Source: an uncultured Candidatus Saccharibacteria bacterium (GTDB lineage Bacteria; Patescibacteriota; Minisyncoccia; Phycocordibacterales; UBA918). Taken from it: DNA of 64,000 nucleotides. The notes beneath the pieces are model-generated. The model worked only from the letters and a program-made list of their open reading frames with translations. It was not told the origin of the DNA and made no database searches. Positions 25,128-44,846 of the stretch are shown here, piece by piece. A program made the position numbers and the translations under genes. The DNA lies in assembly GCA_964643955.1 (NCBI GenBank), contig CAZXUO010000001.1, positions 171,828 through 235,827 on the forward strand, read 5' to 3'. The stretch's first letter is position 1, and the number at the start of each line of letters is the position of its first letter.

Positions 25128-26339
25128 ATGAAGAAGTACACCCGCATACTCACCATACTTGTTGCAATCATAATATTTGTAGGAATAGTATTTTCTGCAT
25201 GGCTTTTCGTGTTCAAAGACGAGCGAAACTACTCATCGATATTTCTCAACACATACCGAGCTGCAGTAATTGACTCAATCTGGGTAGCGTATCGAGAAAC
25301 CATTCAGGAAGATGGGCGTACGATCGATCGTGGGCGAAATTACCTCACCACATCAGAAGGACAATCATATTCACTGCTTCGATCTGTCTGGATGGATGAC
25401 CGAGATACATTTGAACAGGTGTTAAAATGGACAAAGCATAATCTTCAAAAACGCGAAGAAGACCAACTTTTTGCTTGGCTGTGGGGACAGCAATCAAATG
25501 GTCGATGGGATATCATCACCGAAGAAGGCGGACGAAACAGTGCTTCAGATGCTGATCAAGATATTGCGCTCGCACTTATTTTCGCAGCTGTACGCTGGAA
25601 TGATAGTTACTATCTTGATGAGGCAAACGAAATTCTTGATGACATATGGCGACAGGAAGTTGTCCATATAGGAAATCGTCCGTATCTTGTTGCGGGTAAC
25701 TGGGCACGCGATGAGATTCGCCCAACGATAAATCCATCATATCTTTCTCCAGCATGGTATGAGATTTTTGCGCGCGTAGACACCGAGCATGACTGGCTCG
25801 CAGTCAAGGATACTTCGTATGAGGTATTAAACCGCGCTACATGGAATGAACTCGATCGCGGAACCGCAGTTGGACTTCCTCCTGACTGGGTCTCGATCGA
25901 TCGAACGACAGGCGCCATTGTCCCATCGATGCATGCAGACAAAACGACTAATTTCTCTGACGACGCATTTCGTACTTTTTGGCGAGTCGGCCTCGACTGG
26001 GAATGGCATCAAGATGAGCGCGCATACGAATATCTCAACCGCATAACATTTCTTAAGGATGAATGGGAAAAACGAGGACTTGTGTACGGAACATATGGTC
26101 ATGACGGCTCGCTCACAAAAACCGAGGAGAGCAGCTCTCTCTACGGAGTTTTACTTGCATATTTCTCAATCGTAGATAAGGAAATAGCACAAGAAATATA
26201 CGATAAAAAAATAGCAGAGTACTACGACACCGATACGGAGAATCTAAAAGACTATCTTGGATACTACCCACAAAACTGGGTATGGTTCGGCATGGCCTTT
26301 TACAATGACCGACTCCCCAACTTAGCGGATCCTGATTAA
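25128..26339 (+). CDS. Glycoside hydrolase family 8 (BcsZ-like endoglucanase), membrane-anchored
   Basis: TTSEGQSYSL and ASDADQDIALAL (GH8 catalytic region), with an N-terminal TM anchor. Confidence 0.65.
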   Translation: MKKYTRILTILVAIIIFVGIVFSAWLFVFKDERNYSSIFLNTYRAAVIDSIWVAYRETIQEDGRTIDRGRNYLTTSEGQSYSLLRSVWMDDRDTFEQVLKWTKHNLQKREEDQLFAWLWGQQSNGRWDIITEEGGRNSASDADQDIALALIFAAVRWNDSYYLDEANEILDDIWRQEVVHIGNRPYLVAGNWARDEIRPTINPSYLSPAWYEIFARVDTEHDWLAVKDTSYEVLNRATWNELDRGTAVGLPPDWVSIDRTTGAIVPSMHADKTTNFSDDAFRTFWRVGLDWEWHQDERAYEYLNRITFLKDEWEKRGLVYGTYGHDGSLTKTEESSSLYGVLLAYFSIVDKEIAQEIYDKKIAEYYDTDTENLKDYLGYYPQNWVWFGMAFYNDRLPNLADPD

Positions 26340-26347
26340 ACATACGT

Positions 26348-29676: not shown

Positions 29677-29709
29677 AGACTACTTCGTTGCAGTGGTACC
29701 ATTGTCCGG

Positions 29710-31302
29710 ATGAGGAATACTCTTCTCTTTCTTGGACTTATATTCATTGGAACAATTTTTTATGCAGCACATACGTATGCGAATACTCAAAATGATCTAG
29801 GTGCGCTCTACAATGAATGGAAGGAAGAATTTGTCACGCATGAAGGTGCAGGTGGCCATGCGCGCGTACTTCAAAACAAGGATCGTCAAACCACCGTATC
29901 AGAAGGACAGGGATACGGAATGCTTCTTGCAATTTACAACAATGATCCAGAAACATTTGATAAGTTGTGGAAGTATACGAAACAGTACCTCAACGATCGC
30001 GGACTCATGCACTGGCAAATTGACAAGACGGGTGCTGTCATCGGCAGAAACGGTGCAACTGACGGCGATGAGGATATAGCCTTCGCATTACTCGCAGCAT
30101 ACAAACAATGGGGTATGTACGAGGAGGATGCTCGTGCCTATATCGATGCGATTTTTACTCACGAAGTTGAAGCGGAGACATACGTACTTAAGCCGGGTGA
30201 TGTATGGGGCGGCTCTCGCATTACAAATCCGTCATATTGTGCTCCTGCATATTACCGTGAATTCGCAGAATTTACCGGTGAGGAAAACTGGCTTCGTGTA
30301 CTCGACACTTGCTATTCAATTATTAAAAAAGCACGCAATATCAATACAGGTTTGTTACCTGAATGGACAACCATTGACGGCGGCATCGCGTACGATCTTA
30401 CACATAACAAGAATCGCGATAATTTTTCTTACAATGCAATTCGAGTACCTTGGCGTATCTCAGTTGATTGGGTATGGAACCGCGATCCCCGAGCATACTC
30501 AATCAACGACCGCATGACCAACTTTTTCGACAATGAACGAAAATTATATAGCGGGTACACGCTCTCAGGAAAACCAATTGTTATATACTTTGATGCAACG
30601 TTCGCTGCAGGAATTGCTGCAGGATCACTTGCTTCAGATAATACTAAGTTCAGGGAGGAGATGACCGAACGATTGATACAAACAACATCAAATAGCTACT
30701 ATGGTGCGACACTACGCTTGCTGTCACTCATGCTTGTCATGGAGAAATTTCCAAATCTTGCAATCGCGCCTGAAGCACCTCCTGAAAATGAGGAGGAGCA
30801 CAGCACGACTACACCTGAAGTAATCCCATCAGCTCCGCAAGAGCAAGAAATTATTCCCGATTCAGATTCTGTAGAAACAGAACCCATCCCCCAAGAAGAC
30901 CTTGCCGGAGAGGAAGCGAACGTCGGTTCGACAACTCCCGAGATACTCCCTCCTGAAGAACTAGAGGTACCTGAAATTGAGACATCCGTCATCGTTGAAC
31001 CTGAAGAAAATCATACGATAATAATCGACAGTCCTGAAGATAGCGCTACACTTTCTGGAGAGAAGAAGATTAAGGCATATATTGAGAATCTATCACTCGA
31101 CAGCTATACAATGATTTATTCTGTTGATGACAAAATGGAAGACCACATGCATGACGCCGCGGGAATGTTTAAGCAGGCAAAAATCCAATTCGATTCATGG
31201 ACATGGAATGAGAGCGGCCCCTACCGTGTCGACATCACTGCATATGATCTTTCAGGAAATACTCTTGCTACGACTCACATAGAAATCTACGTAAAACACT
31301 AG
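29710..31302 (+). CDS. Second GH8 glycoside hydrolase with an acidic linker and a C-terminal Ig-like domain
   Basis: TVSEGQGYGM and ATDGDEDIAFAL motifs. The C-terminal linker is Glu/Pro-rich. Confidence 0.65.
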   Translation: MRNTLLFLGLIFIGTIFYAAHTYANTQNDLGALYNEWKEEFVTHEGAGGHARVLQNKDRQTTVSEGQGYGMLLAIYNNDPETFDKLWKYTKQYLNDRGLMHWQIDKTGAVIGRNGATDGDEDIAFALLAAYKQWGMYEEDARAYIDAIFTHEVEAETYVLKPGDVWGGSRITNPSYCAPAYYREFAEFTGEENWLRVLDTCYSIIKKARNINTGLLPEWTTIDGGIAYDLTHNKNRDNFSYNAIRVPWRISVDWVWNRDPRAYSINDRMTNFFDNERKLYSGYTLSGKPIVIYFDATFAAGIAAGSLASDNTKFREEMTERLIQTTSNSYYGATLRLLSLMLVMEKFPNLAIAPEAPPENEEEHSTTTPEVIPSAPQEQEIIPDSDSVETEPIPQEDLAGEEANVGSTTPEILPPEELEVPEIETSVIVEPEENHTIIIDSPEDSATLSGEKKIKAYIENLSLDSYTMIYSVDDKMEDHMHDAAGMFKQAKIQFDSWTWNESGPYRVDITAYDLSGNTLATTHIEIYVKH

Positions 31303-32548: not shown

Positions 32549-34633
32549 TTATTCGACCGGTGGCTCTGGCTCCGTCGTAGGTTCAGGCTCTGCGGGCGTC
32601 TCCTCTTCAGCAGGCGCTTCTTCGACTTCTTCTACAACATCTTCAACGACCATAAGATCATCTTCTGGCTGGACCTCGACAATTGGTTCTTCCTGCTCTT
32701 GCTCAACGGGTTCTACCACTGGCTCCGGCGGAAGAATATCTTCTTCACGCACGTCTCCAAGATCAGTAGAGCCGCCGGTCGATTGCTCATCGGTAGGTGG
32801 TGTCGCTTCAAGCACCGGCGCTGTCGACGATGCAGTTGAAGATGCCGTCGGCGTGACCGGTGCAATCTCCGGCGTAATCACTTCCTCTTCTGCAATGAGA
32901 AGCGCTTCAATTTCAGCATCAGTCATTTCAGGAAGTTCCTCAAGTCCTTCTGATATAGGAGCGACCTCAACACCTTCCATAGTGAAGCGAAGAATCTCGA
33001 TATCGTCTGATCCCGGATTGGTACCTGGATTTGGTGTCGCATTGAAAATCCAATCAGAAGCCGCGTCAGTGTCCCAGCCTTTCACCACGCGCGCGATCGA
33101 CTTGCCATCGAGTCCCGTGATGCCGACCGAAGGATTAAGCGCGACGGTATCGGTACCATAGCTTACTTGATCGACGACGACATCAGCGCCATCGCGGAGA
33201 ATCACGCGATCACCACCATCAGCGAGCCCATTGCCGAGCGATACGCCGAGCGCGATTTTAACCGCTGAAGCTGGGATGTCAGTCCAGTGGAGCGCAAATG
33301 TACTCGAGGCATTCGTGACGACCGCAAATCCATATGCAGGGATCGGTGTCGTAAGAAGCGGAATCATGTCGCAGCTCGTATTGTCACAAATATCCCATCC
33401 CGAAATATCAATCGGTGCAGCCGTCGGATTGTAAAGCTCTACCCACTCATTGTTTGTATCAGAGCCATGACCCGAATCTACATCATAGAAAACCTCGTTC
33501 ACGACCATGTGCGTGGTTGGTGCGACCGGCGCATCGATCGCCACCTCGAGGACTGGTCGTACATCGCTCTGACTTTGGTGCTCTGAGCTGCGGAACTTTC
33601 CCGAGCGGCTTCCGCTCTCAGGAAGCGCGTCGACATCCGCAAGCTTCCATCCATAGTTTGAGAAACTTCCATTTACAAAACCTGCGACATCACTCGTGAC
33701 ATCCCAGGACATCCACTTCGCATTCCCATCACCCGTACTCTCAGTGTCGGTCGGCGCAACCACCGCAGGCTTGCTATTCCACGTCACACTTCCCTCGCTC
33801 CACACTGCTGTCGCACGCGAGACTGCGTAATTGGTATTTGGCGTTGGTGCGGTGTAAAGATACGCCTTTAATTGTGCATCAGTGATGATCGAGCCGGGAG
33901 GAAGTGCGAAGTTGAATCCAACGAGCGCCTCAGAGTCCTTCGCACCAGACTGTCGACGAAGCTCAAGCTGCTGACTCGTGCCATTGTTGGTATTTGGCTG
34001 CTGCTCGTTTACATCAGTATCCATAATCGCTGCGATGTCAATCGTCGAAGTGCTTGTGTCGGACATGTTTTCCCACTGCGCTGTGGTGACGGCAAACGAT
34101 TCAGTCTCGACATCGTGATATGCCTTTCCTGAAGCAAAGCCAAACTGCCAACCATCAAACGTAATATCAAAATCGCAGGTCAGATTTGCGTATGAGCTGT
34201 CGACCGGCGGAAGCGAGGTGATGAAATCCCATGAGTTACCATCACCGGGGAAACTTGAGGTGCTGTGTGAGAAGCTTGCGAGCGGCCCCGTGTACACCGT
34301 GCTCGTTGCACGTTTTGCTTCGAGATTGAGTACGCCACAGAGTGGGCTCGTCGTCGCTGAAGTGAAAACGCGATATTCAAATGGCAATGAGTCGGTCGTG
34401 GTCGAAAGCGAGACAGGAAATGCCGGTGCACTGTTTTCAGGTGTGAGTCCGATGAATTCAGTCGTTGTGGTTGCGAGCATAAAATCAAGCTCTGCAGCAT
34501 CAAAAGAATTCTCTTCAGAAATTTCCGTATCGCTATAGTACGCCTGTGTGACACCCACTTGTGCGCAGCCGACCGTCGCAATGAGCGCGAATGCGAGTAC
34601 TTTTATTCCAAATTTATTTCTGAAGTTATGCAT
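32549..34633 (-). CDS. Large secreted protein (694 aa) with a SipW-cognate (TasA/camelysin-type) N-terminal signal
   Basis: The N-terminus ...GVTQAYYSDTEISEENSFDAAELDF matches the A[FY][FY]SDTE..(x)N.F.AG.LDL signature of SipW substrates. The C-terminal tail is Glu/Pro/Thr-rich. Confidence 0.55.
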   Translation of the reverse strand: MHNFRNKFGIKVLAFALIATVGCAQVGVTQAYYSDTEISEENSFDAAELDFMLATTTTEFIGLTPENSAPAFPVSLSTTTDSLPFEYRVFTSATTSPLCGVLNLEAKRATSTVYTGPLASFSHSTSSFPGDGNSWDFITSLPPVDSSYANLTCDFDITFDGWQFGFASGKAYHDVETESFAVTTAQWENMSDTSTSTIDIAAIMDTDVNEQQPNTNNGTSQQLELRRQSGAKDSEALVGFNFALPPGSIITDAQLKAYLYTAPTPNTNYAVSRATAVWSEGSVTWNSKPAVVAPTDTESTGDGNAKWMSWDVTSDVAGFVNGSFSNYGWKLADVDALPESGSRSGKFRSSEHQSQSDVRPVLEVAIDAPVAPTTHMVVNEVFYDVDSGHGSDTNNEWVELYNPTAAPIDISGWDICDNTSCDMIPLLTTPIPAYGFAVVTNASSTFALHWTDIPASAVKIALGVSLGNGLADGGDRVILRDGADVVVDQVSYGTDTVALNPSVGITGLDGKSIARVVKGWDTDAASDWIFNATPNPGTNPGSDDIEILRFTMEGVEVAPISEGLEELPEMTDAEIEALLIAEEEVITPEIAPVTPTASSTASSTAPVLEATPPTDEQSTGGSTDLGDVREEDILPPEPVVEPVEQEQEEPIVEVQPEDDLMVVEDVVEEVEEAPAEEETPAEPEPTTEPEPPVE

Positions 34634-35186
34634 GCGTATCAGTCTTTTCTGGTTCCTCTTTTGCTTCTTTTTTTGTTCGCAACTTTCTCAATTCATTCCA
34701 GAGTGCGACTCCCTCATCAAAAAGGACAAATCCTGCGGGAATGCCGATGAGTAATACGAAACCGAGCGGCTTCTTAGCAAAATCGAGGATGAATCCCATG
34801 TACGGAATCGAGAAGAAGACTTCTCCAAGTACCTGAGTACGCGGTATCGGCCGCGGATCAGGCGCGTTGTTGGCATCGCCTTTCGTGAGATACGAGATGC
34901 CACGACCGATCTCATCTACCTCGACGATGCGGTGCGTCGTCGGCACCTGATCGCCACGTTCAAAGTAGAAGGTGATGATATCACCCACTTGATAATCACC
35001 CGTTGGTCGCATCACAATGAGCGAGCCCGTCTTGATCTCAGGCTCCATCGAGCCGGACTGCACAATCTTTACTTCGAAGTTGCCTGGTACGGGCACGAGC
35101 GGCATGAGCAGCAGAAGACCAAGGAGAACCACTCCCACGATGAGTCCGTAATAGAGAATTGCGAAGAACTTTCCGATCATAAGCAT
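34626..35186 (-). CDS. sipW: Signal peptidase I, ER/archaeal type (SipW)
   Basis: SGSMEP box, a His-containing TTHRIV box (no Lys general base) and a TKGDANNAPD box. This differs from the P-type lepB at 5921. Confidence 0.75.
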   Translation of the reverse strand: MLMIGKFFAILYYGLIVGVVLLGLLLLMPLVPVPGNFEVKIVQSGSMEPEIKTGSLIVMRPTGDYQVGDIITFYFERGDQVPTTHRIVEVDEIGRGISYLTKGDANNAPDPRPIPRTQVLGEVFFSIPYMGFILDFAKKPLGFVLLIGIPAGFVLFDEGVALWNELRKLRTKKEAKEEPEKTDTHA

Positions 35187-35270
35187 ATCGAGGCTTAAAG
35201 ACTTAAGGCCTCATCCCTCCCCGCGATACTTCGCAGGGAGGGTGAGCCATCAAGACTTTAAAGAATTTCT

Positions 35271-37145
35271 TTAAAAGCCGAGAACGTCTCCGTTCAACAT
35301 GACGTCATCTACTTCAACAACCTGAGCTTTGTTGTACGTACCCATTCCTACTGATATACCGACAACTTTTGCTCCTGGATAAGCCGCAGCAAGCTGCTGA
35401 AGTGTGAAGTTGGTTGCGTATGCGCCACCTCCACCACTCACTCCGGCAGCTGTGGTAACTCCACTTGCCCACCACTTACCTTTTGTTTGATCGGCGCTCC
35501 ATGTCTGCTCAACACCAGTCATGATTGATGGTGGGTTGAGGTCATTGTGAGCGAAGATGTTGTAGTACGGTTCAAAGGTGATGTCCTTTGTAGTCGTACC
35601 CACACCATCTCCGTCGAGGTCAACAATGAGGCGAAGGCTCGCGTTTCCGTTTATAGGATCAAACGCTGAAACTTGCTTTGAGTCATACCTCACCATCGTG
35701 ACATCCTCTACATCGATATCTACACCGTAGTTGGTATAGCGAACGCGTGAGTTTACATCATCTGCAGTAACGAGCGTGATGAATCCATCCTCAACAACCA
35801 CATCTCCACCAGCTGATGATGTCTCAATCCACTCGTCCTCTTCTTCACCACCACCATTGTATTCTGCGATCACATCGGCGCATGAGAAGTCTGCGTTGTT
35901 GCGCTGCTGTACTGCGTATGCAGTGATGTCCGCAATGAGTGAGTCTGACTGTGATGCGTTGTCTACCGTAGAGCCATCACATTCGATCTCTCCATCATTG
36001 TTTGTCTGTGTACCTGCGCACCATGCGAGACCGAGGTATGCAGTTGTTGATGCAGTAAGACTGATCTCTTCTGGATTCCATGCATCTGCAAATGATGCGC
36101 CAGGACCAGCAATCACCGTCTCATCTCCTGCATCATATTCTCCATCTCCATTATCAACCCACGCGAAGAATTCAAGGACGCTGCCGAGCTCTCCAGTTGT
36201 AAGTCCATCTTCATCATCCTGTGATTCTGGCTCCGTCTGTGTATTGTCATCTTCCTCAATGTTATATGGGAAGACACACGCAAACGCATCATTGTCGAAC
36301 ACATGGAGTGAAATCACGTTTGTACCCCAGTCACCCGGCTTAATGTCGTTGAAGTTGAAGAACTTGTCTCCATCCGCAAGATCTTTTTCAGCCCAAAGGC
36401 GGCACATATTTTGGAAGTCTGTATCTGCAGCACATTCCTGTTCTGGACGTTCAATATTCAATTTGAACATCAAGCCTGCAGGGTTTGCTTCTGGTGTGCC
36501 GCCCTGTACTGCTTTGTTGCGAACGGTGATTTCAAGCACGTTCTCGCCAGTCTGTACCTCGGCCTGAAGTGCAGCTTGGAATGGCGCAGTATTTACAAGG
36601 TCGCCATAATTAAATTCAGTACCAAGATTGTTCACAATTTCTGTACCGTTGAGGACAATCTTGTAACCATTGTCAGCCGCAAGCGCAAGCGTAAGCGAGA
36701 TACCCGAAACGCCGCCATTCCACTGAAACTTGTTTTGGAATGTGTACTCTGCGTCTGTTGTGGTATCTGCCTGAAGCACTGGATTGGTTACCCAAATCCA
36801 CTGAGCAGGTGCAGCAGAAGCCTCTGGCTCCCATGCAGGGTGAACAAAACTCAACTCGACTGCATCCGTAGGAATTGGTCCTGCGTATGCACCATTGTCT
36901 GCAACAACGTCAGTACTTGCAGCAGACGAAAATACCGTCACGCTACATGTCTCACAGTCTGCGCCATTATACGTTTGCATTGCATGGTCTACCTTAAGAT
37001 CAATCGATCCAGCGGTAAACACGTTTCCTGCTGATGTCTCTGTATCACTGAAGAATGCGCCCGTTCCTGAGATCACAATCGCTGCGATTGCAGTGATGAG
37101 TCCGAGGCTCAAGAGCACTCGCTTTGTGTTAATAACTCCTGTCAT
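35271..37145 (-). CDS. Large secreted protein (624 aa) with a SipW-cognate signal (TasA-like)
   Basis: N-terminus ISGTGAFFSDTETSAGNVFTAGSIDLKVD is a near-canonical match to the SipW-cognate class. Confidence 0.6.
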   Translation of the reverse strand: MTGVINTKRVLLSLGLITAIAAIVISGTGAFFSDTETSAGNVFTAGSIDLKVDHAMQTYNGADCETCSVTVFSSAASTDVVADNGAYAGPIPTDAVELSFVHPAWEPEASAAPAQWIWVTNPVLQADTTTDAEYTFQNKFQWNGGVSGISLTLALAADNGYKIVLNGTEIVNNLGTEFNYGDLVNTAPFQAALQAEVQTGENVLEITVRNKAVQGGTPEANPAGLMFKLNIERPEQECAADTDFQNMCRLWAEKDLADGDKFFNFNDIKPGDWGTNVISLHVFDNDAFACVFPYNIEEDDNTQTEPESQDDEDGLTTGELGSVLEFFAWVDNGDGEYDAGDETVIAGPGASFADAWNPEEISLTASTTAYLGLAWCAGTQTNNDGEIECDGSTVDNASQSDSLIADITAYAVQQRNNADFSCADVIAEYNGGGEEEDEWIETSSAGGDVVVEDGFITLVTADDVNSRVRYTNYGVDIDVEDVTMVRYDSKQVSAFDPINGNASLRLIVDLDGDGVGTTTKDITFEPYYNIFAHNDLNPPSIMTGVEQTWSADQTKGKWWASGVTTAAGVSGGGGAYATNFTLQQLAAAYPGAKVVGISVGMGTYNKAQVVEVDDVMLNGDVLGF

Positions 37146-37389: not shown

Positions 37390-38022
37390 TTATTTATCCT
37401 TGAGCGCCGCGTAAACAACCAGATTATGGCTGTATCGCTGCACGCCACGATCAAACGTACCCGTGCAGGTCACGAGGCGCAAACCCGCATGGTCGATGTC
37501 TCCATAGACTAATTGTGTCGGAAAATTTTCCTGCGCATATCGCTCCAGCGCAGTGACTTCAAATACTGCAATACTGCCGTCCTCTCGCACAATCTCAATC
37601 TCATCGCCGAGCGAGAGTTGTCCGAGTGAATAAAAGACTGCAGGACCCGCAACTGAGTCCACGTGCCCGAGCACAACCGCAGGACCAAGCTCACCGGGCG
37701 TCGGACCATGTTTGTACCATCCGACTTCCTCATAGCCTTTTGGCACTTCCACTTCACCATTTTCTGAGAGGCCGAGCGGGTCGGTAAATGATGCATCGAG
37801 ATCAATCGCAGGAATACGCAATTGAACTGGGAGAGACTCCTCGAGGTACGCGGCACTCGAAGATGCATATGGATCACCCATCTGTTCAGGTGAATACGCT
37901 GGCGCAGGGAGAAAAAGGTACATCACCAATGCGCCTATTACGAGGCCACATACGGCATACGCCGCCACGGTACCGTGGCGGCGTATGCATGATCCGAGTC
38001 GTTGTCTTGGATCAATACTCAT
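37390..38022 (-). CDS. Sortase (class E/F-like transpeptidase)
   Basis: An N-terminal TM anchor, a VVLGHVD His motif and an LVTCTG catalytic Cys motif (TLxTC). Confidence 0.7.
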   Translation of the reverse strand: MSIDPRQRLGSCIRRHGTVAAYAVCGLVIGALVMYLFLPAPAYSPEQMGDPYASSSAAYLEESLPVQLRIPAIDLDASFTDPLGLSENGEVEVPKGYEEVGWYKHGPTPGELGPAVVLGHVDSVAGPAVFYSLGQLSLGDEIEIVREDGSIAVFEVTALERYAQENFPTQLVYGDIDHAGLRLVTCTGTFDRGVQRYSHNLVVYAALKDK

Positions 38023-38027
38023 AAGTC

Positions 38028-39815
38028 CTAGTTGGCGAATCGTCGGAGTGCGAAGCCTGCGCCAAGAATTGCGAGGAGTGCGAAGACTGATACAAGTGAT
38101 GTATCACCTGAAGTGCCTCCTGCACCCGCATTTGGTGCGCCAATCGGCATAATTTCCGTCTGCACGCCGAGAACCTGCGGTACTGGCTCGTCATCGTCAG
38201 AGCTTGAAGACGAGCGACGTGAACCTCCACCCCCACCTCCTCCGCCGCCACCTGAGTCATTGAGACCAAAGTGTGCAACGAGGTCAATATTTCCGCTCAT
38301 AACCACCGTACATGGCGTCGTATTGCCGATGCAGGTACCTGAGCCCGTTGTCCAGCTATTATCGAAGTTTGAGCCTTCGTTTGGAGTCACCACAAGCGTA
38401 ACTTCGGTTCCTTCTGGGTATGTTTCAGAGCAGTCATTCTCTTCATTTTCGCCCGTAAGACAGAAGATTGTCGTCGTCGCCACTTCGGTCTCATTACCCT
38501 CGATTTTTCCGTGACCATCGCCCGTTGTCGTAATCGTGAGTGTATAGCGACCATCACCGTCTCCATCACCGTCTCCATCTCCGTCGCCACCACCGTTTGT
38601 TGGCACCTCAGTACAGTCTACTTCGGTATTGCCGGTAAGTGTCATCTTGTAGAGGAGACCTGCTGGATTTGATTCAGTTGTCCCCCCTTCAAGCGCCCAG
38701 TTTTTCACTTCGATTGAGAGCGTATTTTCGCCCATAATTATTTCGCCACCAAATCCAGTGTAATTGGTCGATGTTCCGAAGTTATCTTCAACGCCACTCG
38801 ATGCAATCTCTGTACCATTAAGCTTCACCGAGTATGAGTTGTCAGCTGCTATATCGAGCACAGAGGCTGTCACGGGACCGTTCCAATCGAAGGTTTTCGT
38901 AAATGTCTGAATCGTCTCGTTGACCGGATCGACAACGGGATCATCACCCCAGATCCATGATGCACCATCGATTACTGCGTCCCATGCATCGTGGATGAAT
39001 GAAACAAGTACTGCCGCAGCACCATCTTCAGTATTTGTCGTGTCACTCACGATCGTGACCGAACACATCTGTGGTTCTGGATCGGTGTCATCAGGCTGTG
39101 CAATGAGACAAAGTTCGACATGATCAAGCAATGTACCCGATGCATTTGATACACCCTGATCCTCAAACGCGATCTCAGTTGACAAGCCGTCAGCAACAAA
39201 CGTCTCCTCATAGAATGACCAATCTGTATCAGAATTACCGGTACCGTCTGCTGTTATTGAGTTTTTCTCAATACCATCTATAAATACACCGAGAATGTTT
39301 TCACTCTCATCCGTTCCGGGTAGTGGAGAAAAAAAGAATTTCAATGCATACGTACCACCCAAAATCGTAGGGACGTCTTGCATAATTCGAACCGATGGCT
39401 GCTCATTCGGACCGTCATCAATACCGGGACCACTCCAATCTGAATCAAGTTCAGTGTAGTAATCACCATGATATGCGCTCCACCAACCTGTATTCCCATT
39501 GTCGATCTCAATATTTGCGGTCTCCGGTGCGCCATCAACATCATGCACCCATCCTGCCTCCCACTCGACACCGTTAGTACCTGATGGTATTACCTCCCAC
39601 TCCTCAATCAAAATATCATCGTCATCAAATGTCTGATCTTCAAAAGAACCGTTTTTGATAAGATTCTCTCCATACACGAGACACTGTGTGCCTTCGGTCT
39701 CGTGCTGCACGCCGGCGTAAACCGGATTAGAGAAAGTACCAGAAAAGACCATCGCAGATACCAGTAAAAATACTCCTACCTTCCGGACTCCAGAGGAAAT
39801 CATAACCGTATTCAT
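38028..39815 (-). CDS. Cell-surface protein (595 aa) carrying a (GD)n linker, a poly-Gly/Ser tract, a PQVLG motif, and a C-terminal hydrophobic anchor followed by a basic RRFAN tail
   Basis: The C-terminal architecture (hydrophobic segment followed by RR) resembles a sortase sorting signal, but no canonical LPXTG is present. Confidence 0.5.
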   Translation of the reverse strand: MNTVMISSGVRKVGVFLLVSAMVFSGTFSNPVYAGVQHETEGTQCLVYGENLIKNGSFEDQTFDDDDILIEEWEVIPSGTNGVEWEAGWVHDVDGAPETANIEIDNGNTGWWSAYHGDYYTELDSDWSGPGIDDGPNEQPSVRIMQDVPTILGGTYALKFFFSPLPGTDESENILGVFIDGIEKNSITADGTGNSDTDWSFYEETFVADGLSTEIAFEDQGVSNASGTLLDHVELCLIAQPDDTDPEPQMCSVTIVSDTTNTEDGAAAVLVSFIHDAWDAVIDGASWIWGDDPVVDPVNETIQTFTKTFDWNGPVTASVLDIAADNSYSVKLNGTEIASSGVEDNFGTSTNYTGFGGEIIMGENTLSIEVKNWALEGGTTESNPAGLLYKMTLTGNTEVDCTEVPTNGGGDGDGDGDGDGDGRYTLTITTTGDGHGKIEGNETEVATTTIFCLTGENEENDCSETYPEGTEVTLVVTPNEGSNFDNSWTTGSGTCIGNTTPCTVVMSGNIDLVAHFGLNDSGGGGGGGGGGSRRSSSSSDDDEPVPQVLGVQTEIMPIGAPNAGAGGTSGDTSLVSVFALLAILGAGFALRRFAN

Positions 39816-39891: not shown

Positions 39892-41292
39892 TCAGATGTC
39901 GAAAAGACGCTCGACCAAACCGCGATTTGAAAGCGACACGAGGTATACAGTATCAGGATCAACAAAAATACCCGCTAGACCCATGTATTGCCAGCGATAC
40001 GAATCTTGGATGGTACGACGCATGGTAATTGAACTACGGGTAAGGTCGTAGACAATCAGGCCAGTTGGCGCCGTCGCTTGTACGACCGTTGAGCCACGTA
40101 CAACTGAGTCTGATTCCCGCACAATAGAGGGAAGATCAGTACGCGCTACGATGGTGCTTCCCGAATTATTTATTACATACCCGAAACCACCACCTGCTGC
40201 GTATGATCCCTGCACAAAAAATGCATCGATACCAGGGACGTACGCGACGTTATAAGTGTAATACTTCACTCCCGAAGTAATCTTTGTTGGAGCTTTTGTA
40301 AGCATACCGGTTGCAGGATCAAGTGCTGCAACATAGAGATCAACTGCAGTCGACCCAGGGACGAATCGTTGCCAGACAAGTAGGGCAGTTTGAGGTGATC
40401 CTGCAACAACAGGCCACCAATCACGTTCGTTACCAACAGAAACATTCACGGTGCGCTCAAGAGAACCATCGTTCTTTATGATTGCCGCATAGACGTCGTC
40501 TCCTGAACCGAGCCCATCGACACCTCCACCATCTACCCATCCTTCAGAGAAAAATACGACAAATTTATTACCGACTGCAGAGACGTGCCCCGAATGACCT
40601 CCCTCCATTACTGTTTGCGGGTATGATTTACGTACTCCAAGTTCCGAATCAAAAACCGCGTATCGTTGAGAAACTTCATACGAAGTATCCCACCCATCTT
40701 CGGTTGTAACGAGAATATTCCCATTTTGTGCAATGGCTGCGCTTGCTGGCTCCTGTGCTTCAGGCTTTGAGATGAGTGTTTGGGGAATAATTACTGGAGC
40801 ACGAGGATCAATAATGGACGCGTATATATCGTGAGTCCAATTCCAATCCTGTTTCGGATCTGCTCCTTTCGGAGGATTCCCCGAACTCGACCAAATGAGA
40901 TAGTGAGTTCCATCTGATCGAGGAAGAAAAGAAATTCCATGCTGAAACTCTCGAAGATCATCAGATGAAGGAGCGTCTTTTGCATTGTTGTAATAAGAAC
41001 TATTGTTACTGAGCTTTACCGAGATATGTGAGCCTGCAGCATCGGGCATGACATTAGGCGCAGCTTCTTCGGTATCTGATGTTTCCGTCATAATAACTTC
41101 CGTAGGATTCTCTACATTTTCCTCGACCTCAGTTTCAATCTCGCTCTCTGGAAGAATCGGTACAACCACAGACAAATCTTCTGCCGTATCTACATACTCC
41201 TCTCCCGGTGCATTCAATCTCTCATAATATGCAAAGGCACCCACCAAAACAGTGGATGCCAATACAATGCCGAGTGCTGCTTTTCGTACCAT
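39892..41292 (-). CDS. Hypothetical secreted or membrane-anchored protein (466 aa)
   Basis: An N-terminal TM segment with a Gly/Ser/Thr-rich body. No family recognised. Confidence 0.4.
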   Translation of the reverse strand: MVRKAALGIVLASTVLVGAFAYYERLNAPGEEYVDTAEDLSVVVPILPESEIETEVEENVENPTEVIMTETSDTEEAAPNVMPDAAGSHISVKLSNNSSYYNNAKDAPSSDDLREFQHGISFLPRSDGTHYLIWSSSGNPPKGADPKQDWNWTHDIYASIIDPRAPVIIPQTLISKPEAQEPASAAIAQNGNILVTTEDGWDTSYEVSQRYAVFDSELGVRKSYPQTVMEGGHSGHVSAVGNKFVVFFSEGWVDGGGVDGLGSGDDVYAAIIKNDGSLERTVNVSVGNERDWWPVVAGSPQTALLVWQRFVPGSTAVDLYVAALDPATGMLTKAPTKITSGVKYYTYNVAYVPGIDAFFVQGSYAAGGGFGYVINNSGSTIVARTDLPSIVRESDSVVRGSTVVQATAPTGLIVYDLTRSSITMRRTIQDSYRWQYMGLAGIFVDPDTVYLVSLSNRGLVERLFDI

Positions 41293-41339: not shown

Positions 41340-43286
41340 CTATTCAACAAACATTTCCACACCATCAATATACGCATGCCCAACTGAACCTGCAGTGAGG
41401 TACACCTGGAGGGAAGCCTGAGTGACTTCTGCAGATGTCGGAGTATACACGTACGATTCATCAATGGTGAAACTGGTGCCTGTCTGACCGAGCCATTTTC
41501 CAGAAATCCAGTTGTCGTCCATATCGTATTCATCCATGTAGAATCCGAGTTCTCCTGACGTAAGATCGTTTGCGTTCGTGACGAAACGGACACCGTAGCG
41601 CGTGTTGAAGTCAACATCAATCTTCTTGCCGAAGACATGCGTCGCAGCATCATTACCTGTCATTTTTAATGCTGCATCCGGAGTTGGATATGCACCATTG
41701 CGTCCCATATCTATTTCAGCAAAATCAGCGTCACTCACCATCCATGAATCAGAGAGTCCATCCTCAAAACTTCCGTTCTCTACCATATTTGACCCAAACT
41801 CAAGCATCTCCTTCACTGTCTTTGCCTTAATACCGCGTGCTTCAAAAGCCTCCATGAGTGTCTCGAGCTTCTCAGTCGTCCATACATACTCGTATAGATT
41901 CTCCTCAGGAACAGTCACCGCAAATTCATGGAAGACAAGGACGAGCCAATGATCATTCTCAACGGCCGCATCAATGTGTACTTCAATCTCTTCAACTGTC
42001 GTACTGGTATGTACAGGGACAACATGGAGAAGATACTTATTGAACGGCCATTTGTTGAGGGAAACATGATTGAACGTTCGGTGGGAGTTGAAATTCTTTA
42101 TGACTTCAGCGAGCACATTTATGTCATATGCCCCATATGGTGAAGCGAAATTTTCTCCCAAAAATCCGTGATCTTCAAGATCCTCAATACTTTGCTCAAG
42201 TTCCTGGGTCACCTCTTCGGGCGATAGTGTCGGCAATTCCGCATGGGTGACGGTATGTGCACCCATTTCGACGTCAATCATGTGGAGACTGTCGAGGTCT
42301 GCCCATGTCATATGCCCTTCGGTACCGATTTGGCCTGTTGGAACATAAAGTGTCGCCTTCTGCTTGAACTGCTGAAGAACCGGAGCTGCGTACAGATATT
42401 GCGAAATGACCGCATCGTCGAACGTCAATGTGACGCCACCCTTTACAAACGGATTCTCAACAGGATCTACGTCAGGCGTATTGTCGAACGTAAGTGTAAC
42501 AATAGACGTCGTTGCCACATTAAGCGCATGATCGATTGCTGAAGCGTAAATAGTGTACTCACCGTCCGCAAAGAAAGCGGTATCAAGCGAAACGCTTGAT
42601 GGAGACGTGGTAGCAGCATCCCCAAAAGTAACTCCACCGACGAAGAATTGAATCTCTTTAAGGCCGCTCGTCACCTGACCAAGTACCACTGGATCAGTCG
42701 AAGACGCTTCGAGCGAAATAACTCCCGAGACCGTAGCACTTACCGAAGGAGCGATAAGTGTAATGATAGGTGTGGTCGTATCAGCATCATCAGTAGGGAC
42801 AGGCTCTTCTTCACCGCCAGAGTCAGTTGTTGTGCCGGTATTAACCTCTTCATTTGAACTTGAGCCACCACCTCCACCCGAACGTCGGCGCGGCTTCTTT
42901 TCCCCGGTCGTATCATCAGAAGTATCACCCGCATCCGCTACTGTCGTTGTTCCTGCAACCGTAGGAACGGGAGAATTCGCAAAAAAATCAAAAGGTTCTT
43001 CAAAAAGTGGACCATTCAATAGCGTAGACGAAACGTCAGACGGATTTGAAGACTCTTGTTCTTCTTCCACATCTTCATCGTCTGTTTCTTCTGAAGCTGG
43101 ATCTACATCGTTAACATCTGAAAATTCAACTGAAGCAGTCTGATCATCCGACCTCTCGAACATACCTGCATTAAGAAACAGGAAACCTACAAAAAACAGT
43201 ATCGCGACAGAGAGTGCTCCTGCCGTATACCACAACTTCTTATTATCTTCTTTTTTAAAAATATTATTCATAGCTTCTTTGTACAC
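41340..43286 (-). CDS. Polysaccharide deacetylase (CE4, NodB homology; IcaB/PgaB-like) with an N-terminal TM segment and a C-terminal beta-sandwich domain
   Basis: NodB motifs TLTFDDA, HTVTHAEL and ASPYG. The acidic linker near the N-terminus is rich in Asp and Thr. Confidence 0.7.
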   Translation of the reverse strand: MYKEAMNNIFKKEDNKKLWYTAGALSVAILFFVGFLFLNAGMFERSDDQTASVEFSDVNDVDPASEETDDEDVEEEQESSNPSDVSSTLLNGPLFEEPFDFFANSPVPTVAGTTTVADAGDTSDDTTGEKKPRRRSGGGGGSSSNEEVNTGTTTDSGGEEEPVPTDDADTTTPIITLIAPSVSATVSGVISLEASSTDPVVLGQVTSGLKEIQFFVGGVTFGDAATTSPSSVSLDTAFFADGEYTIYASAIDHALNVATTSIVTLTFDNTPDVDPVENPFVKGGVTLTFDDAVISQYLYAAPVLQQFKQKATLYVPTGQIGTEGHMTWADLDSLHMIDVEMGAHTVTHAELPTLSPEEVTQELEQSIEDLEDHGFLGENFASPYGAYDINVLAEVIKNFNSHRTFNHVSLNKWPFNKYLLHVVPVHTSTTVEEIEVHIDAAVENDHWLVLVFHEFAVTVPEENLYEYVWTTEKLETLMEAFEARGIKAKTVKEMLEFGSNMVENGSFEDGLSDSWMVSDADFAEIDMGRNGAYPTPDAALKMTGNDAATHVFGKKIDVDFNTRYGVRFVTNANDLTSGELGFYMDEYDMDDNWISGKWLGQTGTSFTIDESYVYTPTSAEVTQASLQVYLTAGSVGHAYIDGVEMFVE

Positions 43287-43295
43287 TTGGTAATG

Positions 43296-43538
43296 TTATT
43301 GATTTATCTGTAAACCCAGGTCGTGTATGCTCACCTGACGCAACGCACCCTTATATTTCCTGAGATTTATAAAAAATCTGATGAGCATGAGTACTGAGAG
43401 CCCAAACGAGATTATTGTAAAGATTAGAAATATCCGTGCCAAAATGATATTGCCGGAAGAGTTTAGCAAAAAAGCCGTCGCGACCGCGAGCGGCATCGAT
43501 GACAAAGTTGAGATCACTGTCCCTCCGTGCAGATTCAT
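43296..43538 (-). CDS. Small two-TM membrane protein, positioned like IcaD/PgaD
   Basis: 80 aa with two hydrophobic helices, lying between the processive GT2 and the CE4 deacetylase. Confidence 0.35.
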   Translation of the reverse strand: MNLHGGTVISTLSSMPLAVATAFLLNSSGNIILARIFLIFTIISFGLSVLMLIRFFINLRKYKGALRQVSIHDLGLQINQ

Positions 43539-43607
43539 AGTCGTACCGAATTACTACACGACCTGTGTATCATGCTTTCTTGGCTTTGGCAAGTTTTAGA
43601 AAGTATT

Positions 43608-44846
43608 TTACCCACTTCGTGTGCCCCATCCTTTTGTATATCCCACTTTAAGGAACATCTTCCTAAGACCACGCATAAATGACGTATCCGGGATTGATAC
43701 GCTCACTACATTAAACAACCAAAATAGATATGACCCCAGTAACACAAGCGTTAATAAATTCGCATATATAAATTCCGGCACGAGTGATATTCGAAGCAAC
43801 CAATCTATACGATCCTTATCAGCATAAAACTTCATGAGCCAAAGCTGGAAACTATACCAAAGAATAACTTGAGCGAGTGAGAGCGCAATAATACATTGAA
43901 ATATCACATGTGACATCACCCCTCTTTCTGCAAACATATACGACACGATAATAAGAAAGAGTGTCCCCACAAACATGACATGCCCGATAATATCCTGGAT
44001 GATACCCGGTGCGAACTTCATCTCCGACACAACGGTTACACCTCCATAGACCCATCGTGTGCGTTGTCTCCATAGATGGGAAAATCTTGCAGGCACTTCA
44101 GTCCATGCGTATGCATGTGGCGCAAGGCGGACATGCCAACCGAGAGACTTAATACGAGAAGTAATCTCATAATCCTCGATAAGGTGCCCTTCTTTAAAGC
44201 CTCCGACCGCATAGAGCACGTCCGCACGAAATGCCGTAAGCATACCGTGCATAACGAGCGGACCATAAAAAAATCCTTCGTCGGCAAGGCGTGTTGCGTT
44301 AAAACCAAGGTATTCAAGCCCCTGAAGGCGGGTCAAGAAATTAGCATTCTTATTGAGCACGCGACATTGCGAACATGCTGCGCCGATACGCTCATCGGAA
44401 AGCACGCCATGTACGAGTGCCTTCACTGTGTTTCTATCGACAACGACATCATCATCGAGTGTAAGAATAATATCGGGACGCACGCCGGCATCTCGCATAG
44501 AAAAAAGTGCATAATTTATTGCACCTGCCTTCATCTTATTAACAGGAGTCCGAAGCAATGTCACCCGATCCGACATCTTTGCTATTGAAGCAAAATAAGC
44601 GTACTCATGTTCATACGACTCTGGAGTACAGTCATCAACAACGTAAATGCACAATTCGTCGTTCCAACGAAGAAGGTCAGAAACGAGCTTTACAGTGAGT
44701 GGACCGGGCTTAAATGAAGGAATGATGGCGACAACAGCACAAGGATGTGATGTTGCTGACTGCACCTTGTTTTGAAATCGGTGAGGAACAACAAAACTCG
44801 CAATATGCTGCATTGACGAAATTGAGTTTTGTGAAAAATCACCCAT
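43608..44846 (-). CDS. Processive GT2 polysaccharide synthase (IcaA/PgaC/NodC-like)
   Basis: VVDDC, LDDDVVV, EDYEIT and RQRTRW (QxxRW-type) motifs, plus C-terminal TM helices. Confidence 0.7.
   Translation of the reverse strand: MGDFSQNSISSMQHIASFVVPHRFQNKVQSATSHPCAVVAIIPSFKPGPLTVKLVSDLLRWNDELCIYVVDDCTPESYEHEYAYFASIAKMSDRVTLLRTPVNKMKAGAINYALFSMRDAGVRPDIILTLDDDVVVDRNTVKALVHGVLSDERIGAACSQCRVLNKNANFLTRLQGLEYLGFNATRLADEGFFYGPLVMHGMLTAFRADVLYAVGGFKEGHLIEDYEITSRIKSLGWHVRLAPHAYAWTEVPARFSHLWRQRTRWVYGGVTVVSEMKFAPGIIQDIIGHVMFVGTLFLIIVSYMFAERGVMSHVIFQCIIALSLAQVILWYSFQLWLMKFYADKDRIDWLLRISLVPEFIYANLLTLVLLGSYLFWLFNVVSVSIPDTSFMRGLRKMFLKVGYTKGWGTRSG

What the first reader, a model, noticed from the sequence alone, without database searches (positions are those of the whole stretch)
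41340..44846. icaADB-like poly-N-acetylglucosamine module
Three adjacent genes: a processive GT2 with D, DDD, ED and RQRTRW motifs (43608-44846); an 80-aa two-TM protein (43296-43538); and a CE4 deacetylase with TFDD and HTVTH motifs plus an extra C-terminal beta-sandwich domain (41340-43286). The gene order matches staphylococcal icaA-icaD-icaB. The small ORF would be easy to miss in automated annotation, yet IcaD is required for full IcaA activity.
Basis: partly seen in the sequence, partly recalled or inferred. Interest (0 to 1): 0.6.

Follow-up and report, generated by a model that had tools for sequence, protein, structure and literature searches.

The report
PNAG-synthase-like sugar-polymer module with missed micro-protein
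A tiny-genome (Patescibacteria) bacterium carries a three-gene set that most likely makes and partly de-acetylates a sticky N-acetylglucosamine polymer. Its middle gene, an 80-residue membrane protein that always accompanies the synthase, was missed by automatic annotation and belongs to no described family.

Summary
Three co-directional minus-strand genes sit at the stated coordinates, and every quoted motif is present.

- **Synthase (GT2).** It is a membrane-embedded processive synthase. Its family scores best against PNAG synthases (MatB-like 117 bits, PgaC 92, IcaA 85). NodC (59), hyaluronan synthase (33), chitin synthase (29) and cellulose synthase (21-32) score lower. It still falls far below NCBI's PgaC/IcaA cut-off (98 against 422 bits) and lacks the N-terminal membrane helix that the reference PgaC, IcaA, NodC and MatB-like sequences have.
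- **80-aa ORF.** It is real. A homologue follows the GT2 in 39 of 39 related Patescibacteria loci, it shows a coding substitution pattern, and R54 and N58 are invariant. It has no detectable similarity to IcaD or PgaD and matches no Pfam or NCBIfam family. Gene callers called an antisense ORF in its place.
- **Deacetylase.** It is a generic, membrane-anchored CE4 with intact catalytic motifs and a C-terminal CBM-like β-sandwich. It is not IcaB- or PgaB-type.

So this works like icaADB but is not a member of that system, and the sugar linkage is unproven.

One unexpected finding: in sister lineages a sortase gene sits between the small ORF and the CE4, and there the small protein carries an LPxT sorting-signal-like motif.

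The parts
43608..44846 (-). Processive family-2 glycosyltransferase (412 aa). It has a cytoplasmic GT-A domain, interface helices and three C-terminal transmembrane helices, and no N-terminal transmembrane helix.
   Evidence: Pfam GT2 families. The best NCBIfam match is PgaC_IcaA at 97.7 bits, below the 422.3 cut-off. The AlphaFold2 model has pLDDT 90.9. Foldseek top hits are hyaluronan synthases, PcManGT, chitin synthases and BcsA. Profile ranking is MatB-like > PgaC/IcaA > NodC > BcsA.
44052..44069 (-). RQRTRW, the Q-x-x-R-W motif of processive GT2 synthases. The other catalytic motifs are VVDD at 44631-44642, LDDDV at 44445-44459 and IEDYE at 44166-44180.
   Evidence: Positions are. The residues are invariant in 79 homologues.
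43296..43538 (-). 80-aa small membrane protein, the obligate genomic partner of the GT2. It has an N-terminal GGT, a weakly hydrophobic segment with a conserved Pro (MPLAV), an NSSGN turn, a strong transmembrane helix, and the invariant R54-x-x-x-N58 (RFFIN at 43365-43379) followed by a basic tail.
   Evidence: Present directly after the GT2 in 39 of 39 loci. Differences per codon position are 0.34/0.21/0.58. Mantel r = 0.855 against GT2 distances. No Pfam or NCBIfam family matches. No similarity to IcaD or PgaD.
41340..43286 (-). Membrane-anchored extracytoplasmic CE4 polysaccharide deacetylase (648 aa, or 643 aa from the ATG at 43271).
   Evidence: Pfam Polysacc_deac_1 at 59.2 bits. The best NCBIfam match is HfsH at 51.7, below its cut-off, and IcaB scores 17 bits. 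Homologues follow the GT2 and small ORF in 20 of 39 loci.
43158..43232 (-). N-terminal transmembrane anchor of the CE4 (about aa 19-43). An acidic, low-complexity linker follows, to about aa 165.
   Evidence: Hydropathy and the sequence itself.
41787..42449 (-). CE4 catalytic domain (about aa 280-500). Motifs are in canonical order: TFDD (42414-42425), HTVTH (42243-42257), ASPYG, and LVFHE (41925-41939).
   Evidence: D, H, H and the acid His are invariant in the family alignment.
41343..41777 (-). C-terminal β-sandwich carbohydrate-binding-module-like domain of the CE4 (about aa 504-648).
   Evidence: The AlphaFold2 model matches CBM16, CBM4, CBM22 and CBM61 with TM-scores of 0.6-0.76 relative to the target. 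Homologues carry Pfam CBM_4_9.
39892..41292 (-). 466-aa membrane-anchored protein of unknown fold, the next gene on the same strand. It may be an accessory protein, but membership of the module is uncertain.
   Evidence: No Pfam, NCBIfam or PDB match. It is conserved after the CE4 only in the nearest relative, L001 (64% identity).

Best explanation
This is a synthase-dependent exopolysaccharide module of a Patescibacteria (Kaiserbacteria/Parcubacteria-like) bacterium. It works like icaADB, pgaCD-B or matAB.

- **Synthase.** The cytoplasmic GT-A domain of the 412-aa GT2 polymerises a UDP-sugar, most likely UDP-GlcNAc. It threads the chain through a channel formed by its three C-terminal transmembrane helices and interface helices.
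- **Small protein.** The 80-aa membrane protein is an obligate partner subunit. It probably supplies in trans the membrane helices that lie N-terminal to the catalytic domain in the reference PgaC, IcaA, NodC and MatB-like sequences, and so stabilises or activates the synthase.
- **Deacetylase.** Outside the membrane, the anchored CE4 holds the polymer through its CBM-like domain and removes some N-acetyl groups. The result would be a cationic, adhesive poly-GlcNAc, PNAG-like or chitosan-like.

Shown here: the gene structure, catalytic motifs, fold, family ranking, and strict co-conservation of the GT2 and small ORF. Inferred: the sugar and its linkage, the physical GT2-small protein complex, and the adhesive role.
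For: - All GT2 catalytic motifs are invariant.
- The confident model has a processive-synthase fold.
- With one family profile on one scale, the scores are MatB-like 116.6, PgaC 91.6, IcaA 85.1, NodC 58.5, PcManGT 42.3, HAS1 32.6, BcsA 32 or 21, and chitin synthase 28.8 bits. hhalign gives broadly the same ranking, with IcaA above PgaC, and PgaC_IcaA is the top NCBIfam match.
- MatB, a bifunctional CE4/GT2 protein, is shown experimentally to make PNAG (PMC5972031).
- The small ORF follows the GT2 in 39 of 39 loci across GT2 identities of 37-62%. It has a coding substitution pattern, invariant R54 and N58, and correlated divergence with the GT2 (r = 0.855, 0 of 2000 permutations).
- The GT2 lacks an N-terminal transmembrane helix. 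PgaC has two, and IcaA, NodC and MatB-like have one before the GT-A domain.
- The CE4 has an intact metal triad and acid/base residues, an N-terminal anchor and a CBM-like domain.
- The genes are tightly packed (gaps of 69 and 9-24 nt).
- A separate cellulose-synthase-like GT2 with GH8 neighbours exists in the same window, so this GT2 is not the cellulose enzyme.
Against: - The GT2 is only about 25% identical to PgaC over the catalytic core. It reaches less than a quarter of the PgaC/IcaA equivalog cut-off.
- No PgaC or IcaA structure appeared among the PDB matches, and the nearest folds are hyaluronan synthases.
- The small protein has no similarity to IcaD, PgaD or the N-terminal helices of PgaC, IcaA or MatB-like.
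- The CE4 is as close to NodB as to PNAG deacetylases. It is missing near the GT2 in 19 of 39 loci.
- There is no IcaC or PgaA counterpart.
- Correlated divergence can arise from shared vertical descent alone.
- No complex model or experiment was possible.
Confidence: 0.55

Rival explanations
1. The architecture is the same, but the product is a β-1,4 GlcNAc chain (chitin or chito-oligosaccharide) that the CE4 converts to chitosan-like material. This would be a NodC/NodB-like pair rather than a PNAG system.
For: NodC is the second-best characterised relative (54 bits, 58.5 bits). Pfam chitin-synthase families also hit. NodB is among the best reference matches for the CE4 profile (score 86.5, against 70-73 for IcaB and PgaB). 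The MatAB authors likewise could not tell the 1,4 from the 1,6 linkage by bioinformatics (PMC5972031).
Against: All three PNAG synthases tested outscore NodC by 27-58 bits. They also align further into the membrane region: 309-313 columns for IcaA and MatB-like against 217 for NodC.
Confidence: 0.2
2. The small protein is primarily a sortase-related element, a sorting signal without a passenger domain, rather than an IcaD-like activator. In the window lineage it would be a relic of a four-part GT2, small protein, sortase and CE4 machine that links a peptide or the polymer covalently to the envelope.
For: In 14 loci from sister lineages a sortase-like gene lies between the small ORF and the CE4. 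These lineages include WWE3, Dojkabacteria, Microgenomates and Levybacteria. All 10 sortases with an intact His/Cys/Arg triad are paired with a small protein carrying VLGAA..LP[AMT]T[STA][AG], then a hydrophobic stretch and a basic tail. One protein fuses the small protein to a sortase-like domain (P0247).
Against: The window's small protein and those in the other Kaiserbacteria-type loci have no LPxT motif (MPLAV or TPLG instead). They also have no adjacent sortase. The class F sortase about 5 kb downstream has its own neighbouring substrate with a different motif, APNAGAGG. In four loci and in P0247 the sortase-like protein has lost its catalytic residues yet is retained. This argues for a structural role rather than a transpeptidase role. 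The invariant part of the family is the transmembrane helix plus R-x-x-x-N, not the LPxT motif.
Confidence: 0.15
3. The GT2 is not an exopolysaccharide synthase. It would be a lipid- or cell-wall-directed transferase, for example a polyprenyl-phosphate or lipid glycosyltransferase like PcManGT or ceramide glucosyltransferase, and the CE4 would act on peptidoglycan.
For: PcManGT is the best PDB match by sequence (42 bits) and a top structural match. The structural neighbours of the CE4 include peptidoglycan deacetylases. In L053 the module lies beside mraY-ftsW-murG.
Against: The Q-x-x-R-W motif and the channel-forming helices are invariant. PNAG synthases score two to three times higher than PcManGT. 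The CE4 carries a polysaccharide-binding-type CBM.
Confidence: 0.08
4. The 80-aa ORF is not a gene, and the antisense 72-aa ORF called by gene finders (43381-43599, + strand) is the real one.
For: Automatic gene calling chose the antisense ORF. No obvious ribosome-binding site precedes the 80-aa ORF.
Against: The same-strand ORF is open in 39 of 39 loci, with conserved residues and a third > first > second codon-position substitution pattern. Its homologues are annotated as proteins in other genomes. The antisense open stretch is as short as 36-53 aa in several loci.
Confidence: 0.02

Closest known systems
icaADBC of Staphylococcus (PNAG/PIA synthesis)
   Same: The gene order is synthase, small membrane protein, CE4 deacetylase. 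The GT2 has all processive-synthase motifs and aligns to IcaA over 309 columns including the membrane helices (hhalign E = 2e-21). The organism most likely has no outer membrane (inferred from established knowledge of Patescibacteria), so no outer-membrane porin is needed.
   Different: The GT2 falls far below the equivalog cut-off and lacks IcaA's N-terminal transmembrane helix. The small protein is unrelated in sequence to IcaD. The CE4 is 648 aa with a transmembrane anchor, a probable Ig-like region (by homologue Pfam hits; poorly modelled) and a CBM-like domain, whereas IcaB is 291 aa. It scores only 17 bits on the IcaB model. There is no IcaC.
pgaABCD of E. coli
   Same: PgaC plus the small two-helix PgaD form the synthase, and PgaB is a CE4 deacetylase. 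PgaC is among the top relatives of the GT2 (91.6 bits, and 25% identity over 153 aa).
   Different: PgaC has two N-terminal transmembrane helices. PgaD shows no similarity to the small protein. There is no PgaA porin and no C-terminal glycoside-hydrolase domain like that of PgaB. The gene order differs, since pgaB precedes pgaC.
MatAB of Streptomyces (PNAG synthesis by the bifunctional CE4-TM-GT2 protein MatB)
   Same: A MatB-like bifunctional protein is the best-scoring characterised-type relative of the GT2 family (116.6 bits and hhalign E = 4e-25 over 313 columns). The same CE4 and GT2 activities are combined. Streptomyces also has a separate cellulose-like synthase, as this window does (PMC5972031).
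   Different: Here the CE4 and GT2 are separate proteins with a micro-protein gene between them. That the S. viridifaciens protein used as the reference is an orthologue of MatB was not verified.
NodC/NodB chito-oligosaccharide synthase and deacetylase
   Same: A GlcNAc-polymerising GT2 lies next to a CE4. NodB is one of the best reference matches for the CE4 profile.
   Different: NodC scores clearly lower than the PNAG synthases. The nod system has no small membrane partner. NodB is a small cytoplasmic single-domain enzyme.

Membership tests
PgaC/IcaA PNAG synthase (NCBIfam TIGR03937 equivalog) | Whole-protein score above the curated cut-off (422.3 bits) | tested here: not met
   97.7 bits, although this is the best-scoring NCBIfam family.
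PgaC/IcaA PNAG synthase (NCBIfam TIGR03937 equivalog) | GT2 catalytic motifs D, DxD, ED and Q-x-x-R-W, with a membrane channel | tested here: met
   The motifs are present and invariant in 79 homologues. The model has a processive-synthase fold.
PgaC/IcaA PNAG synthase (NCBIfam TIGR03937 equivalog) | Closer to PNAG synthases than to cellulose, hyaluronan, chitin or Nod synthases | tested here: met
   MatB-like 116.6, PgaC 91.6 and IcaA 85.1 bits, against NodC 58.5, HAS 32.6, BcsA 21-32 and chitin synthase 28.8. hhalign likewise puts all three PNAG synthases above NodC and BcsA.
PgaC/IcaA PNAG synthase (NCBIfam TIGR03937 equivalog) | Transmembrane helix or helices N-terminal to the catalytic domain | tested here: not met
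   Hydropathy finds none in the window GT2 or the L053 GT2. PgaC has two and IcaA has one.
PgaC/IcaA PNAG synthase (NCBIfam TIGR03937 equivalog) | The product is β-1,6-linked poly-GlcNAc | not testable with these tools
   This needs biochemistry: dispersin B sensitivity, mAb F598 binding or NMR.
IcaD / PgaD accessory subunit | Sequence homology to IcaD or PgaD | tested here: not met
   hhalign of the 26-member profile against S. hominis IcaD and E. coli PgaD gives probability 0.2%. No Pfam or NCBIfam family is shared.
IcaD / PgaD accessory subunit | A small integral membrane protein encoded directly after the synthase gene and always found with it | tested here: met
   39 of 39 loci. Two hydrophobic segments. 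Mantel r = 0.855.
IcaD / PgaD accessory subunit | Binds the synthase and is needed for full activity | not testable with these tools
   No multimer prediction or assay was available.
IcaB / PgaB PNAG deacetylase | Score above the family cut-off (IcaB TIGR03933, 248 bits) | tested here: not met
   17.1 bits on the IcaB model, and the best NCBIfam match is HfsH at 51.7 against a cut-off of 400. hhalign scores are IcaB 70, PgaB 73 and NodB 86.5. Neither IcaB nor PgaB is among the top 50 structural matches.
IcaB / PgaB PNAG deacetylase | CE4 fold with an Asp-His-His metal site and catalytic Asp and His | tested here: met
   Pfam PF01522 at 59.2 bits against a cut-off of 23.1. TFDD, HTVTH and LVFH are invariant.
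Complete ica / pga operon | IcaC-type acyltransferase/exporter, or PgaA porin | tested here: not met
   No such domain occurs in any neighbouring gene between 31317 and 47949.
Sortase-coupled GT2, small protein, sortase, CE4 variant (unnamed; seen in sister Patescibacteria lineages) | A sortase-like gene between the small ORF and the CE4, and an LPxT motif in the small protein | tested here: not met
   In the window the small ORF abuts the CE4 and reads SMPLAVA at the motif position. The only sortase, 37390-38022, is class F and is paired with its own substrate.

The most novel reading that the evidence does not exclude
The small-protein family is a sorting signal without a passenger domain. 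In its LPxT-bearing members, the adjacent dedicated sortase would cleave it and transfer the strongly conserved N-terminal ~19-residue peptide (MTDYGKGxVLGAAxxLPAT) onto an amine. One candidate acceptor is the free glucosamine amines that the neighbouring CE4 creates on the polymer. Another is the cell wall, which would tether the exopolysaccharide machinery or its product covalently to the envelope. Under this reading the window's version is a derived form that keeps only the synthase-binding transmembrane core. This would be a new way of coupling sortase chemistry to polysaccharide secretion. The closest precedent is the attachment of type IX secretion cargo to a linking sugar (PMC7468200, listed; not read here, recalled from general knowledge).
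Probability: 0.12. Interest if true: 0.85.

Novelty: new variant of a known kind. Interest (0 to 1): 0.5.

Why it matters
Patescibacteria (CPR) are ultra-small bacteria, many thought to live attached to other cells, and how they stick to hosts or surfaces is poorly known. A conserved module for a cationic GlcNAc polymer would be an obvious adhesin candidate.

The module also shows that a PNAG-synthase-like enzyme can lack its N-terminal membrane helix and instead always travel with an unrelated micro-protein. That gives a third, independent example, after IcaD and PgaD, of a small membrane partner for this class of synthase, and a clean system to ask what such partners do.

In practical terms, the partner gene is mis-annotated here, with an antisense ORF called in its place, and it has no family model. 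A Pfam or NCBIfam entry would be needed to annotate it consistently. Profile searches found 65 cluster representatives and 71 clusters.

The sortase link seen in sister lineages is unreported in the literature I could search. It is directly testable with peptides and purified enzyme.

Tried and rejected
- **AlphaFold-database fold search.** The afdb50 library would have held PgaC and IcaA models, but it was not available. No PgaC or IcaA structure appeared among the PDB matches, so fold search could not separate PNAG synthases from hyaluronan or chitin synthases.
- **Homologue search with the full CE4.** Low-complexity candidates swamped it and only 13 hits came back. This limited the alignment depth for the CE4 model, and the N-terminal Ig-like region was not modelled.
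- **Small protein as a split-off N-terminal helix.** hhalign of the small-protein profile against the N-terminal segments of PgaC, IcaA and NodC, an internal segment of MatB-like and the full PgaC, IcaA and MatB-like proteins found nothing. The 'helices supplied in trans' idea therefore rests on architecture only.
- **Promoter and terminator scan.** Counts did not exceed the shuffled expectation, so operon boundaries rest on gene spacing.
- **Window small protein as a sortase substrate.** I considered MPLAV or MPIG as a sorting motif. I rejected it because the apparent substrates in this lineage use [VA]PN[AT]G[AF]G.
- **Literature.** Searches for PNAG synthesis or sortase-linked EPS in Patescibacteria found nothing relevant.


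Full report
**Observation**

- GT2, 43608-44846, 412 aa.
- Small ORF, 43296-43538, 80 aa.
- CE4, 41340-43286, 648 aa from a GTG. Gene callers start at the ATG at 43271, giving 643 aa.

The gaps between them are 69 nt and 9-24 nt. Every quoted motif is there:
- GT2: VVDD (aa 69-72), LDDDV (130-134), IEDYE (223-227), RQRTRW (260-265).
- CE4: TFDD (288-291), HTVTH (344-348).

Pfam assigns the large proteins to GT2 and CE4 above the gathering thresholds. The window comes from a Patescibacteria genome. The GT2's relatives, at 48-62% identity, are from Candidatus Kaiserbacteria, Parcubacteria and related bins.

**The synthase**

D72, D131-133, E224, D225, Q261, R262, R264 and W265 are invariant in 79 homologues. 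An AlphaFold2 model is confident (pLDDT 90.9, pTM 0.90). Foldseek places it among membrane-integrated processive GT2 synthases: hyaluronan synthases, the archaeal PcManGT, chitin synthases and BcsA.

No PgaC or IcaA structure appeared among the PDB matches, so fold alone cannot decide the substrate. Sequence profiles can.
- NCBIfam's top family is PgaC_IcaA (97.7 bits). NodC (54) and CelA (20) follow.
- I fetched reference sequences from annotated records: E. coli PgaC, PgaD, PgaB and BcsA; S. hominis IcaA, IcaD and IcaB; R. leguminosarum NodC and NodB; and a Streptomyces bifunctional CE4/GT2.
- One family HMM then gives MatB-like 116.6, PgaC 91.6, IcaA 85.1, NodC 58.5 and E. coli BcsA 21.4 bits.
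- On the same scale, PDB entries give PcManGT 42.3, HAS1 32.6, BcsA 32 and chitin synthase 28.8.
- hhalign agrees that all three PNAG synthases outrank NodC and BcsA (it places IcaA above PgaC). It extends the IcaA and MatB-like alignments through the membrane helices, over 309-313 columns.

MatB is experimentally tied to PNAG production (PMC5972031).

It is nevertheless not an equivalog. It scores 97.7 against a cut-off of 422.3 bits. It is about 25% identical to PgaC over 153 residues. It has no transmembrane helix N-terminal to the GT-A domain, whereas PgaC has two and IcaA, NodC and MatB-like have one.

**The small ORF**

A scan of one genome per species for relatives of the GT2 returned 39 Patescibacteria loci with GT2 identity of 37-62%. 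In all 39, a 51-81-aa ORF with the same layout starts within a few dozen bases of the GT2 stop. The evidence is, with L003 and L027 checked by eye.

The layout is:
- a short N-terminus with a near-invariant Gly;
- a weakly hydrophobic segment with a conserved Pro;
- a polar turn;
- a strong transmembrane helix;
- an invariant R-[YFL]-x-x-N followed by basic residues.

Among pairs at least 50% identical, differences per codon position are 0.34, 0.21 and 0.58, which is a coding signature. GT2 and small-protein distance matrices correlate (Mantel r = 0.855, 0 of 2000 permutations; r = 0.73 within the Kaiserbacteria-type set). That fits co-inheritance and possibly co-evolution, but it does not prove contact.

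The family matches no Pfam or NCBIfam model. Its profile has no similarity to IcaD or PgaD (probability 0.2%), nor to the N-terminal helices of PgaC, IcaA or NodC or to any part of MatB-like. An exhaustive profile search of 1.84 billion cluster representatives found only 65 members, almost all of them stand-alone proteins of 47-87 aa.

In Logan assembly contigs that carry this same locus, the gene caller called a 72-aa antisense ORF (window 43381-43599, + strand) instead. The 80-aa sequence is absent from a 15-billion-protein collection, although homologues in other genomes are listed as hypothetical proteins.

**The deacetylase**

The CE4 has these parts, in order:
- an N-terminal membrane anchor;
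- an acidic low-complexity linker;
- a poorly modelled Ig-like region;
- a canonical CE4 domain, with TFDD, H-x-x-x-H, a conserved Arg and the LVFH acid invariant in the family;
- a well-folded C-terminal β-sandwich that matches CBM16, CBM4, CBM22 and CBM61 modules. Homologues carry Pfam CBM_4_9.

It is a generic CE4. Its best NCBIfam match is HfsH at 51.7 bits against a cut-off of 400, and IcaB scores only 17 bits. hhalign scores are NodB 86.5, MatB-like CE4 90, PgaB 73 and IcaB 70. A homologue follows the GT2-small ORF pair in 20 of 39 loci. The invariant core is therefore the GT2 plus the small protein, and the CE4 is a frequent third member.

**An unexpected relative arrangement**

In 12 of the 39 loci, and in two further contigs, a sortase-like gene of about 200 aa sits between the small ORF and the CE4, often overlapping its neighbours. 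These loci come from WWE3, Dojkabacteria, Microgenomates, Levybacteria and others.

There the small protein reads MTDYG[KR]G.VLGAA..LP[AMT]T[STA][AG], then a hydrophobic stretch and R-Y-x-x-N with a basic tail. In other words it looks like a cell-wall sorting signal with no passenger domain.
- All ten adjacent sortases with an intact His/Cys/Arg triad go with an LPxT small protein.
- Two pseudo-sortases (N/S/Q at the triad positions) keep LPATSA.
- Two others (T/T/G or S) go with a small protein that has lost the motif.
- One database protein fuses the small protein to a degenerate sortase-like domain.

These sortases fit no curated class; class E is the closest but falls below its cut-off.

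The window lineage lacks both the adjacent sortase and the LPxT motif, reading SMPLAVA at that position. The class F sortase at 37390-38022 sits next to its own substrate, the 595-aa protein ending in APNAGAGG, a transmembrane helix and RRFAN. The same motif occurs in substrates in L011 and L018. I therefore treat the sortase link as a property of the wider family, not of this locus. It does open a more novel reading of what the small protein does.

**Mechanism and confidence**

The most likely mechanism (about 0.55) is a two-subunit synthase working with an extracytoplasmic deacetylase. The GT2 and the small membrane protein would polymerise and export a GlcNAc homopolymer. The anchored CE4-CBM protein would then partly de-N-acetylate it into a cationic adhesive polymer. 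That is functionally an icaADB, pgaCD-B or matAB analogue.

The steps shown are gene structure, motifs, fold, family ranking and co-conservation. The steps inferred are the substrate and linkage, the physical complex, the idea that the small protein replaces the missing N-terminal helices, and the biological role.

The rivals are:
- a β-1,4 chitin or chitosan-type product (0.2);
- a primarily sortase-related role for the small protein (0.15);
- a non-polymerising, lipid- or wall-directed transferase (0.08);
- a spurious ORF (0.02).

**Comparison and novelty**

The module works like icaADB, but it fails the membership tests for IcaA/PgaC (score and N-terminal helix), IcaD/PgaD (no homology) and IcaB/PgaB (score). 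It also lacks IcaC and PgaA. JGI already labels some of the GT2 homologues as cellulose-synthase/PNAG-synthase-like, so the enzymes themselves are unsurprising.

What is new is the uncharacterised, universally linked micro-protein family and its sortase-coupled form. I found no paper describing either. I rate this a new variant of a known kind, with interest 0.5.

Noticed in passing
window 25086-31302 (+): A second polysaccharide cluster: GH8, then a 530-aa cellulose-synthase-like GT2 (Pfam Cellulose_synt hit), then a PMT_2 protein with a LysM domain, then another GH8. It suggests the organism makes a separate cellulose-like polymer, as Streptomyces does with CslA alongside MatAB.
   Followed up: partly
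window 43381-43599 (+): A 72-aa ORF antisense to the small membrane-protein gene. Automatic gene calling on Logan contigs that carry this same locus reports this ORF. It is probably a mis-call.
   Followed up: yes
window 37390-39815 (-): A 595-aa 'choice-of-anchor C' surface protein with GDGDGD and poly-Gly linkers. It ends in APNAGAGG, a transmembrane helix and RRFAN, and a class F sortase follows 5 nt later. The same [VA]PN[AT]G motif ends putative substrates in L011 and L018, which suggests a non-LPXTG sorting motif in this lineage.
   Followed up: partly
window 32549-37145 (-): A 624-aa protein with a SipW-dependent (TasA/camelysin-type) signal peptide, a 186-aa weak S26/S24-like (below the Pfam cut-offs) putative signal peptidase, and a 694-aa CBM96 + lamin-tail-domain protein. 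This looks like a fibre or matrix-protein module next to the sortase module.
   Followed up: no
window 39892-41292 (-): A 466-aa membrane-anchored protein with no detectable family or solved relative. It lies directly after the CE4 and is conserved there only in the closest relative, L001 (64% identity).
   Followed up: partly
L024, L026-L028, L031-L037, L039, L053, L054 (sortase-like gene right after the small ORF): Sister lineages have the order GT2, small protein with an LPxT motif, sortase-like gene, CE4. Ten of the sortases keep the His/Cys/Arg triad and four are degenerate pseudo-sortases. P0247 fuses the small protein to a degenerate sortase-like domain.
   Followed up: partly
L053 1-12195: In a Levybacteria contig the four-gene module lies between mraY-ftsW-murG-ftsA and genes for a nucleotidyltransferase/hexapeptide-repeat protein and an EPSP-synthase-fold protein (possibly GlmU- and MurA-like; my inference from the Pfam domains). 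This hints at a link to cell-wall and UDP-GlcNAc metabolism.
   Followed up: no
window 43617-43631 (-) (GT2 aa 406-410): The GT2 family has a near-invariant extreme C-terminal tail, G-Y-x-x-x-W-G-T-R. The PgaC and IcaA alignments do not extend to it. Its function is unknown, but it could contact the small protein.
   Followed up: no
P0002; L001: The closest GT2 and CE4 homologues are labelled 'Acetobacteraceae bacterium' in NCBI. The same contig is titled Candidatus Parcubacteria in GTDB-derived records, so this is probably a taxonomic mislabel or mis-binning.
   Followed up: no
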